Of a stretch of 64,000 nucleotides of DNA, positions 19,237-19,894 are shown piece by piece. Every line of letters begins with the position of its first letter. Positions within the stretch are counted from its first letter, which is position 1. Both the position numbers and the translations under genes were made by a program. The stretch is from Eledone cirrhosa. Taxonomy: Eukaryota. Where the stretch lies: the NCBI GenBank assembly GCA_964016885.1, contig OZ024740.1:24986001-25050000 (forward strand), read 5' to 3'. The notes under the pieces are model-generated. The model had not been told where the DNA came from. It made no database searches and worked only from the letters and a program-made list of their open reading frames with translations.

Positions 19237-19287
19237 AGCTTCCTGAAGATTTCATCTGAATGAAACAGTACTAGTCCTGTAGAAGCT
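19237..19287 (+). ncRNA. Complete type I hammerhead ribozyme (family D)
   Basis: AGCTTC-CTGAAGA-T-TTCA TC TGAA-T-GAAA-CAG TACTAGTC CTG-TA/GAAGCT gives a perfect 6-bp stem I, an intact core and a GUA cleavage triplet. Confidence 0.85.
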
Positions 19288-19346
19288 CCTTCTATAAAAT
19301 AAAAAAATAATATATATATATATATATATATATATATATATATATA

Positions 19347-19548
19347 GGAACCAGTAAGACCCCGACAGCTGAGCTCAAGCCGTTTCGACGGCTAATTCTG
19401 GACTCATTATCCAGAATTAGCCGTCGAAACGGCTTGAGCTCAGCTGTCGGGGTCTTACTGGTTCCTATTACCCACTCTACTACCTCAAGTATTGAGTACT
19501 TTGGTGCGTTATGGTCCACCTGGTTCCTTACCACATTTCCTTCGTTAT
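19347..19548 (+). mobile_element. Solo PLE terminal repeat with an inverted 5' arm (family C) in (TA)n
   Basis: Palindrome 19347-19465 plus a tail to TTCGTTAT, nearly identical to 43799-43992 in reverse orientation. It contains the HHR 3' half GAAA-CGGCT TGAGCTC AGCTG-TC/GGGGTC. Confidence 0.88.
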
Positions 19549-19761
19549 ATATATATATATATATATATATATATTTATATATATATATATATATATATAT
19601 ATTTATATATATATATATATATATATATATTTATATATATATATATATATATATATATATATATATTTATATATATATATATATATATATAGTACGTTAT
19701 TCCGGGTTGAATCGGAGGTAACCACAGTAAGTAAGGTACTCAATACATTGCAGAGTATAAC

Positions 19762-19894
19762 AGTTTTAATATAGATGAGATTCTACAGGACTAGAACTGT
19801 TTCATTCTTTAGAAATCATCAGGAATTAGATTCCTGATGATTTCTAAAGAATGAAACAGTTCTAGTCCTGTAGGATCTCATCTATATTAAAACT
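19762..19894. mobile_element. 133-bp palindrome of two back-to-back complete hammerheads (family D)
   Basis: The plus HHR at 19829-19877 is GATTC-CTGATGA-T-TTCT AA AGAA-T-GAAA-CAG..CTG-TA/GGATC. A mirror copy lies on the minus strand at ~19779-19826, and (TA)n flanks the unit. Confidence 0.88.

What the first reader, a model, noticed from the sequence alone, without database searches (positions are those of the whole stretch)
19237..19894. Family D hammerheads covary between copies, and two are fused back-to-back in a 133-bp palindrome
Seen: stem I is AGCTTC/GAAGCT at 19237, GATTC/GGATC at 19829 and ATTC/GAAT in the minus arm. Stem II is TTCA/TGAA versus TTCT/AGAA, and the core is CTGAAGA versus CTGATGA, varying only at the free position. 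Both keep an unusual U-U apposition at the base of stem II. Compensatory change is the strongest in-window evidence that the RNA structure was under selection. The 19762-19894 unit encodes a complete ribozyme in both polarities.
Basis: seen in the sequence. Interest (0 to 1): 0.75.

Follow-up and report, generated by a model that had tools for sequence, protein, structure and literature searches.

The report
Back-to-back Penelope stubs mark RNA start
The three hammerhead motifs are ends of a very common Penelope-type jumping gene, and the mirror-image pair is one of over 3,000 such stubs in this genome, likely made when the element's enzyme copied its RNA from both sides of a DNA cut and ran off a predicted capped start at the ribozyme's first letter; it is not a selected two-way ribozyme.

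Summary
Three type I hammerhead motifs and the 133-bp palindrome are real. They are the pseudo-LTR ribozyme of a Hydra-clade Penelope-like element (full-length copy with RT and GIY-YIG ORF found; 44,364 genomic motif matches). The covariation claim mostly fails: 19237 and 19828 belong to sister subfamilies that differ by one true compensatory pair in stem I; the stem II "pair" closes a 2-nt loop and is U·U in 19 of 45 unbiased copies; the other differences are private mutations; U·U at 10.1/11.1 is in published Hydra hammerheads. The true unit is 19692-19894: one long-ended and one short-ended arm (45 of 49 pairs) in (TA)n. A transcript through it is predicted to fold into a 65-bp hairpin, not ribozymes. 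The informative signal lies elsewhere: fold-back junctions pile up at the ribozyme's 5' edge (295, 1,968, 1,225, then 8 sites in successive windows), 29-30 nt below a conserved TATA box, with an extra G. This points to twin-primed run-off copies of a capped, uncleaved sense RNA, against a published antisense self-priming proposal. No RNA or cleavage was observed. The scan reported this reading before on other DNA of this genome.

The parts
18764..19307 (+). 5'-truncated direct copy of the subfamily A element: 3' UTR, hammerhead and short 3' end, between (TA)n runs
   Evidence: blastn to fetched copies L064, L070, L071, L074, 85% over about 545 nt; (TA)n at 18737-18765 and 19310-19346
19208..19215 (+). 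TATA box 29 nt upstream of the first base of stem I (predicted promoter)
   Evidence: same spacing in 31 of 41 A copies (29 nt; 9 had none) and 30 of 36 B copies (30 nt) that keep upstream sequence
19237..19287 (+). Type I hammerhead, subfamily A: stem I 6 bp, stem II 3 bp over U·U, stem III 4 bp with 8-nt partly self-complementary loop; predicted cut after 19281
19546..19691 (.). (TA)n target, left side of the inverted insertion
19692..19827 (-). Long arm of the inverted insertion (subfamily B): hammerhead (core 19822-19816, cut site 19784, stem I reduced to 4 bp) plus about 90 nt beyond the cut site, i.e. with the 'tail'
   Evidence: matches full-length copy L117 up to 19692
19827..19829 (.). 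Head-to-head junction at the 5' edge of stem I, the predicted transcription start; same class as a frequent junction but with one substitution at 19827
19828..19894 (+). Short arm (subfamily B): complete hammerhead 19828-19878 (cut after 19872; private A-to-G at 19874 gives a U·G pair) ending about 21 nt beyond the cut site
19894..19957 (.). (TA)n target, right side

Best explanation
The hammerheads are the pseudo-LTR ribozyme of a Hydra-clade Penelope-like retrotransposon, and 19692-19894 is a head-to-head insertion stub, likely formed when two cDNAs primed from the two cut strands of a (TA)n target ran off the predicted capped 5' end of the element's uncleaved RNA and were joined. Shown: parent element, copy number, one long and one short 3' end per pair, junction pile-up ending at stem I, TATA spacing, extra G. 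Inferred: Pol II starts at the A that opens stem I; RT starts internally about 21 and about 89 nt past the cut site (the two-site 'tail' initiation shown in vitro for another PLE); when it uses the copy of these sites next to the RNA's 5' end it makes only about 67- and 135-nt run-off products; the extra G comes from the cap; the two identical cDNA ends anneal through a few bases of the nearly palindromic stem I strand. The ribozyme fold is kept at the level of the active source elements (probably weak, protein-assisted or dimeric); the stub itself is a neutral by-product.
For: Full-length copy L119: hammerhead, 758-aa open frame, 3' UTR, second hammerhead, (TA)n; motifs RWR, DKT, YRDD, CxCx5C, CxxC, CxH as listed for Hydra in PMC8557442 section 11. 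44 of the first 100 listed motif hits form 22 divergent neighbour pairs, 14 of 22 at spacing 64-80. One long plus one short end in 45 of 49 inverted pairs and 21 of 24 junction loci (three loci shared's set). Genome-wide junction counts with equal 11-nt probes and a 0-12 gap: arm start +8..+2 = 295, +2..-4 = 1,968, -4..-10 = 1,225, -10..-16 = 8; C3 = 0, stem I opens at -6. In one search's 50 listed sites, read by eye, 0 of 100 arms reach -8, and of 39 arms reaching -6 the preceding base is G 21, C 14 (all beside the partner arm), T 3, A 1. Subfamily A: 777 copies lack the templated C at -7; first 100 are G 44, A 53 (38 in perfect-palindrome joints), T 3 (all three point mutants of longer copies); of 18 G's not explained by a partner arm, 16 are single G, whereas snap-back on stem I predicts GG. 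Extra 5' G is attributed to the cap for L1/SVA (PMC3287187 passages). Internal two-site initiation and use of uncleaved RNA shown for PAc (PMC11167929). Both arms carry the same loop II variant in 50 of 50 listed pairs (30 and 20 of the two variants, read by eye). Strand-switch joints at this position also occur in public contig sets X1 and X4.
Against: No RNA, start site, cap or cleavage was observed. In subfamily B an extra G at -7 is also what stem I snap-back would give, and locus L174 and 5 of 30 loci fit that route. Many junctions lie 1-8 nt inside the proposed start (+2..-4 is the largest window), which needs trimming or annealing within the ends. The four probes differ in sequence, and the upstream probe misses an older variant. 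8 of 26 unexplained A-subfamily bases are A, not G (about five look like decayed palindromic joints). D. virilis Penelope has a TATA-less internal promoter (PMC2377424 passages). Frangieh et al. saw no strand difference in start site in vitro, whereas here long and short ends are coupled. Pfam gave no RT hit and only E=0.092 for GIY-YIG, so clade assignment rests on motifs and by-eye likeness to Hydra-1_Obim.
Confidence: 0.72

Rival explanations
1. Same parent element, but RT stalls or snaps back at the folded ribozyme: stem I (an inverted repeat, with a nearly palindromic 5' strand) triggers template switching in a longer RNA, so the hotspot reflects structure, not an RNA end.
For: The commonest joints use short self-complementary words of stem I (506 exact sites of one class; 19 perfect-palindrome pairs among 100 A hits); L174-type units are one hammerhead between inverted ends; in B the extra G fits snap-back.
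Against: The hammerhead fold is weak (-3.7 to -6.7 kcal/mol, not the MFE; stem I pair probability 0-0.02 in the predicted transcript); single untemplated G in A (16 of 18); TATA at fixed distance; a structure-only hotspot does not predict a 150-fold cliff directly upstream.
Confidence: 0.15
2. Self-priming on an antisense template makes the head-to-head palindrome (proposal of Arkhipova et al. 2013 for rotifer Penelopes).
For: Head-to-head palindromes at inverted junctions are what that model was built to explain (PMC3846280 Discussion).
Against: It does not predict two fixed, different 3' ends per pair (45 of 49), a sense TATA 29-30 nt above the junction cliff, or an extra G on the sense 5' end of the arms, on both arms in L244 and L009.
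Confidence: 0.06
3. One reading: a selected bidirectional ribozyme cassette that cleaves transcripts of either strand.
For: Both strands carry an intact core and cut triplet; more than 1,200 genomic pairs keep both cores and at least 4 nt of stem I.
Against: Predicted 65-bp hairpin hides both folds; about as many or more pairs lose part of stem I or the core; cores decay as fast as other positions; minus arm fold is -0.4 kcal/mol.
Confidence: 0.04
4. Assembly or library fold-back artefact.
For: Fold-back chimeras are a known artefact of some long-read libraries (own knowledge).
Against: Arms differ by point mutations and have unequal fixed ends; flanks are not mirrored; strand-switch joints occur in contigs of two samples.
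Confidence: 0.01

Closest known systems
Hydra clade of C-terminal EN+ Penelope-like elements, including Hydra-1_Obim (Craig et al. 2021, PMC8557442; passages, section 11, supplement part 2 and searches read)
   Same: RWx, DKT, CxCx5C linker, CxxC and CxH, C-terminal GIY-YIG, (TA)n target, hammerhead in the pseudo-LTR; U on both sides at the base of stem II appears in many listed Hydra hammerheads, and several share the same 4-bp stem III (File S2); inverted 5'-truncated copy and a tail on one end are described as common.
   Different: 3' UTR of about 2.6 kb or more rich in microsatellites (L119), element longer than the <3 kb stated; tail about 70 nt rather than 30-40; loop III 8 nt rather than 1-3; hammerhead sequence unlike the one listed for Hydra-1_Obim; no junction map or start site given in what I read.
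PLE hammerheads (Cervera and de la Pena 2014, PMC4209133; parts 1-2 of 4 read)
   Same: Type I motif in pseudo-LTRs, thousands of dispersed truncated copies, pairs close together on opposite strands already noted (100-700 bp), palindromic loop III suggesting dimers.
   Different: Here stem II is short (3 bp) and lacks the G10.1-C11.1 pair that the paper calls highly conserved; stem III is 4 bp; the pairs are fused with a 0-12-nt joint.
PAc, Poseidon of Anolis carolinensis, in vitro (Frangieh et al. 2024, PMC11167929; parts 1-2 of 4 read)
   Same: Two internal RT start sites defining the tail, both target strands cut and extended, uncleaved RNA is the main template, ribozyme needs the protein.
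   Different: Different clade; the paper reports no strand difference in start site and does not treat head-to-head joints or the RNA 5' end.
Inverted pLTR palindromes of Adineta vaga Penelopes (Arkhipova et al. 2013, PMC3846280; passages and Discussion read)
   Same: Head-to-head palindromic junctions, tail on one inverted copy, TATA and Inr-like motifs in the pLTR.
   Different: Interpreted as self-priming on an antisense template, with a sense template left open; the data here favour a capped sense template.
Animal non-LTR retrozymes (PMC7229834 passages; bioRxiv 10.64898/2026.07.22.740005 part 1 of 5 and passages)
   Same: Type I hammerhead; proposed derivation from PLE ends.
   Different: Retrozymes are head-to-tail repeats of about 300 bp; this unit is an inverted pair that cannot release a monomer.

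Membership tests
Type I hammerhead ribozyme | Core CUGANGA, GAAA and NUH with three helices, stem I open | tested here: met
   helix pairs kept in 270-330 of 332 copies per pair (junction-truncated copies included)
Type I hammerhead ribozyme | G10.1-C11.1 pair (typical, not universal) | tested here: not met
   U·U in 327 of 332 copies; also in published Hydra motifs
Type I hammerhead ribozyme | Self-cleavage at the NUH site | not testable with these tools
   Indirect only: 167 copies lack the templated base before the cut; of 30 inspected, 15 are point mutants, 14 begin exactly at the cut (5 of them via stem I homology; L301 and L302 are the two arms of one pair) and 1 is an internal deletion; no neighbouring-position control
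Type I hammerhead ribozyme | Match to an Rfam hammerhead model | tested here: not met
   0 hits at gathering threshold; E-value mode not run
EN+ Penelope-like element | Single ORF with RT and C-terminal GIY-YIG endonuclease | tested here: met
   758-759-aa open frames in L117-L120, L123 with YRDD and VYxC...YIG motifs; Pfam GIY-YIG only E=0.092 and no RT hit; no PDB hit
EN+ Penelope-like element | Pseudo-LTRs with hammerhead on both sides of the ORF | tested here: met
   L118, L119, L120, L123
EN+ Penelope-like element | Inverted 5'-truncated copy and tail at one end | tested here: met
   45 of 49 pairs
Hydra clade | RWK-like, DKT, CxCx5C linker, CxxC and CxH, no CCHH | tested here: met
   read from the L119 and L116 translations against PMC8557442 section 11; RWR in place of RWK
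Hydra clade | (TA)n insertion target | tested here: met
Hydra clade | Placement in an RT tree with reference PLE clades | not tested
   reference proteins were seen only as supplement text; compared by eye, no alignment or tree
Non-LTR retrozyme | Head-to-tail tandem monomers each with a hammerhead | tested here: not met
   window unit is an inverted pair; a separate 78-bp tandem array of the same motif exists on C28

The most novel reading that the evidence does not exclude
Thousands of genomic stubs act as a fossil 5' RACE of a Penelope-like element: its capped RNA begins at the first base of the hammerhead, and each insertion uses two coupled priming events, one per target strand at its own fixed RNA site (about +21 and +89), possibly on one RNA or on a ribozyme-dimerised RNA pair. 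This would settle the template strand (sense, uncleaved) and explain both the one-sided tail and head-to-head palindromes of PLEs as strong-stop-like products.
Probability: 0.55. Interest if true: 0.6.

Novelty: new member of a known kind. Interest (0 to 1): 0.4.

Why it matters
As filed (covarying, two-way ribozyme) the finding is ordinary: hammerheads in PLE ends and inverted insertions are published. What matters is the by-product: how PLEs make head-to-head palindromes and one-sided tails, and which strand they copy, is left open in PMC3846280 and PMC8557442. The junction cliff, TATA spacing, extra G and long/short coupling give exact coordinates to test by 5' RACE and in the existing in vitro TPRT assay. 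Thousands of short near-perfect inverted repeats are also a likely source of double-stranded RNA in this genome (inference).

Tried and rejected
Rfam gathering search of the window: 0 hits. The repeat finder was swamped by microsatellites. Stem II fourth pair as covariation: rejected. A-to-G at 19874 as a subfamily variant or recurrent editing site: rejected, 0 of 83 unbiased B copies; it was frequent only among hits ranked by likeness to the window arm. ADAR signature in hammerhead copies: inconclusive, A>G versus T>C was 7 versus 0 in 103 B copies and 2 versus 4 in 152 A copies. Selection on inserted cores: not seen (some loci were found with core probes, which would favour conservation). 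Pile-up at the cut site: inconclusive, no control position. Expression: no RNA holder listed; contig run X4, of unknown kind and another sample, showed A>G at 8 places versus T>C at 1, a hint only; a wider laying was not obtained. Pfam and PDB did not classify the protein; no Atlas result. No tree with reference PLEs, no R-scape; no other species' copies were aligned. Literature searches listed no paper mapping PLE inverted junctions to a capped start; the library lacks most subscription journals, and bioRxiv supplements and figures could not be seen. Contexts were collapsed when identical and satellite loci were left out before counting.

Full report
Observation. The window is G000:C1:24986001-25050000 of a 3.0-Gb animal genome. 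A structure scan finds type I hammerhead motifs with C3 at 19243 (+), 19834 (+) and 19822 (-), and 19762-19894 matches its reverse complement at 128 of 133 positions. Rfam gives no hit at gathering threshold. The stem III motif occurs 44,364 times against 55 for the reversed control, so neither motif nor palindrome is chance.

Parent element. Copies that extend upstream lead through a microsatellite-rich 3' UTR to a GIY-YIG endonuclease frame. Searching with it and fetching 20 flanks gave intact elements: L119 is hammerhead, 758-aa open frame, 3' UTR, hammerhead, (TA)n; L117, L118, L120 and L123 have the same open frame behind a hammerhead. The protein has RWR, DKT, YRDD, a CxCx5C linker, CxxC and CxH, the motif set given for the Hydra clade of Penelope-like elements (PMC8557442 section 11), and resembles Hydra-1_Obim by eye. 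Pfam gave only a weak GIY-YIG match and PDB nothing; no tree was built. The 19237 copy (subfamily A) and the 19828 pair (subfamily B) come from sister elements with 74% identical proteins. The 19237 copy is a 5'-truncated direct insertion, 18764-19307.

Covariation. In 332 distinct copies the core, three pairs of stem II and four of stem III are near-invariant while loop II takes 19 forms; stem I pair 4 is A-U in 148 and C-G in 129. That is real but is about one event between source elements; on six representatives the covariation score is reached by 41 of 500 shuffles. The G at 19874 is absent from 83 unbiased B copies. U on both sides of the stem II base is listed for many Hydra hammerheads in File S2 of PMC8557442. 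Core positions in inserted copies mutate no less than others.

The palindrome. The minus arm runs on for 70 nt to 19692, so the unit is 203 bp between (TA)n runs. Among 49 distinct inverted pairs, 45 have one end about 21 nt and the other about 89-93 nt beyond the cut site; 21 of 24 junction loci agree. This is the inverted copy with a one-sided tail described for PLEs (PMC8557442 passages; opposite-strand hammerhead pairs in PMC4209133), and it fits the two internal RT start sites shown in vitro (PMC11167929). A transcript through the palindrome folds to a 65-bp hairpin at -100 to -104 kcal/mol, whereas the hammerhead fold of an arm is -0.4 to -6.7 and not the minimum. Stem-loop III is predicted to dimerise (-14 to -17 versus -2.1 kcal/mol), in line with the dimer model for PLE hammerheads.

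Where the arms meet. Of the first 100 listed motif hits, 44 form 22 divergent pairs, 14 at spacing 64-80. Genome-wide counts with equal-length probes give 295, 1,968, 1,225 and 8 sites for arm starts at +8..+2, +2..-4, -4..-10 and -10..-16 (C3 = 0, stem I opens at -6; controls 0-1). One exact joint class has 506 sites. In the 50 sites listed, read by eye, no arm of 100 reaches -8, and 21 of the 25 non-templated bases at -7 are G. A TATA box lies 29 nt above -6 in 31 of 41 A copies and 30 nt above in 30 of 36 B copies that keep upstream sequence, and older variants keep one too. In subfamily A, 777 copies lack the templated base at -7; the first 100 show G 44, A 53 (38 from perfect-palindrome joints), T 3 (point mutants). 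I fetched all listed G and T sites and the unpaired A sites, not all paired A sites; of 61 distinct contexts, 26 were not explained by a partner arm: 18 G (16 single, against the GG expected from stem I snap-back) and 8 A. An untemplated 5' G is attributed to the cap in L1-mediated insertions (PMC3287187 passages).

Mechanism. Shown: parentage, coupling of long and short ends, junction cliff, TATA spacing, G excess. Inferred: transcription starts at the first base of stem I; RT primed on both cut strands at the 5'-proximal copy of the two start sites runs through the uncut ribozyme and off the cap, giving about 67- and 135-nt cDNAs that anneal through a few self-complementary bases. Both arms carry the same loop II variant in 50 of 50 listed pairs (by eye), so they come from one RNA or one source gene. 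This differs from the antisense self-priming proposal of PMC3846280, which left a sense template open. Against: no RNA seen; in B the extra G is ambiguous; the largest window lies a few bases inside the proposed start; probes differ in sequence; D. virilis Penelope is TATA-less (PMC2377424 passages). Evidence of cleavage is inconclusive: 167 copies lack the templated base before the cut, 14 of 30 inspected start exactly there, with no control position.

Independent data. No RNA run was listed. Contigs of runs X1 and X4 show strand-switch joints near stem I and cover that rises there and falls at the long end; X1 may be the assembly's own sample.

Earlier scan notes. My reading was written down before the look-up, which returned follow-ups on other parts of this genome with the same conclusion (e1-10348905, e1-9550100, e1-9564957); these are AI notes, not independent support.

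Verdict. The remaining value is a sharp, testable record of the RNA start and of coupled twin priming, not found in the papers listed. Interest 0.4.

Noticed in passing
G000:C28 about 30.50-30.87 Mb (L031-L033, L286, L287, L322-L328): A satellite of 78-bp head-to-tail units, each a complete subfamily B hammerhead; present at 12 of 12 sampled stretches from 30.500 to 30.871 Mb and absent at 30.45 and 30.885 Mb, so roughly 4,700-5,500 units if continuous. Strict core intact in 232 of 342 units; the core is no more conserved than loop II. Far shorter than the about 300-bp retrozyme monomers; a tandem transcript could form dimeric hammerheads.
   Followed up: partly
window 19344-19545: A second head-to-head insertion of another repeat family with a short arm (19344-19404) and a long arm (19410-19545) between (TA)n; its joint lies at what looks like a decayed hammerhead core.
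   Followed up: no
window 14270-14610, 18160-18590, 20030-20200: Further large palindromes of other families beside (TA)n; the one at 14270-14610 carries a hammerhead with a long stem II (core at 14372, minus strand; a relative at 48291).
   Followed up: no
window 22418-22451 (+): Another type I hammerhead (8-bp stem I, cut triplet GUC) of an unrelated family.
   Followed up: no
L119:7517 and 7938; L122:6942 and 7410: Retrozyme-like tandem hammerheads with periods of 421 and 468 bp and a minimal palindromic stem III, next to the Hydra elements.
   Followed up: no
L119:1817-1860, run X4: A>G differences at 8 places versus T>C at 1 in contigs of a run of unknown kind, nearly absent in X1; would fit RNA editing of sense transcripts if X4 is RNA.
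   Followed up: partly
L301/L302 (G000:C1:246126594-246126647): An inverted pair in which both arms begin exactly at the predicted cut site, a possible trace of a self-cleaved template.
   Followed up: partly
window 1-12728 and 50971-63997: Two large satellites (45-bp unit, 281 copies; 22/42-bp unit, over 600 copies) bound the window.
   Followed up: no
window about 24700-26000: GC-richer stretch that reads like a LINE reverse transcriptase region on the minus strand (impression from the sequence, not tested).
   Followed up: no
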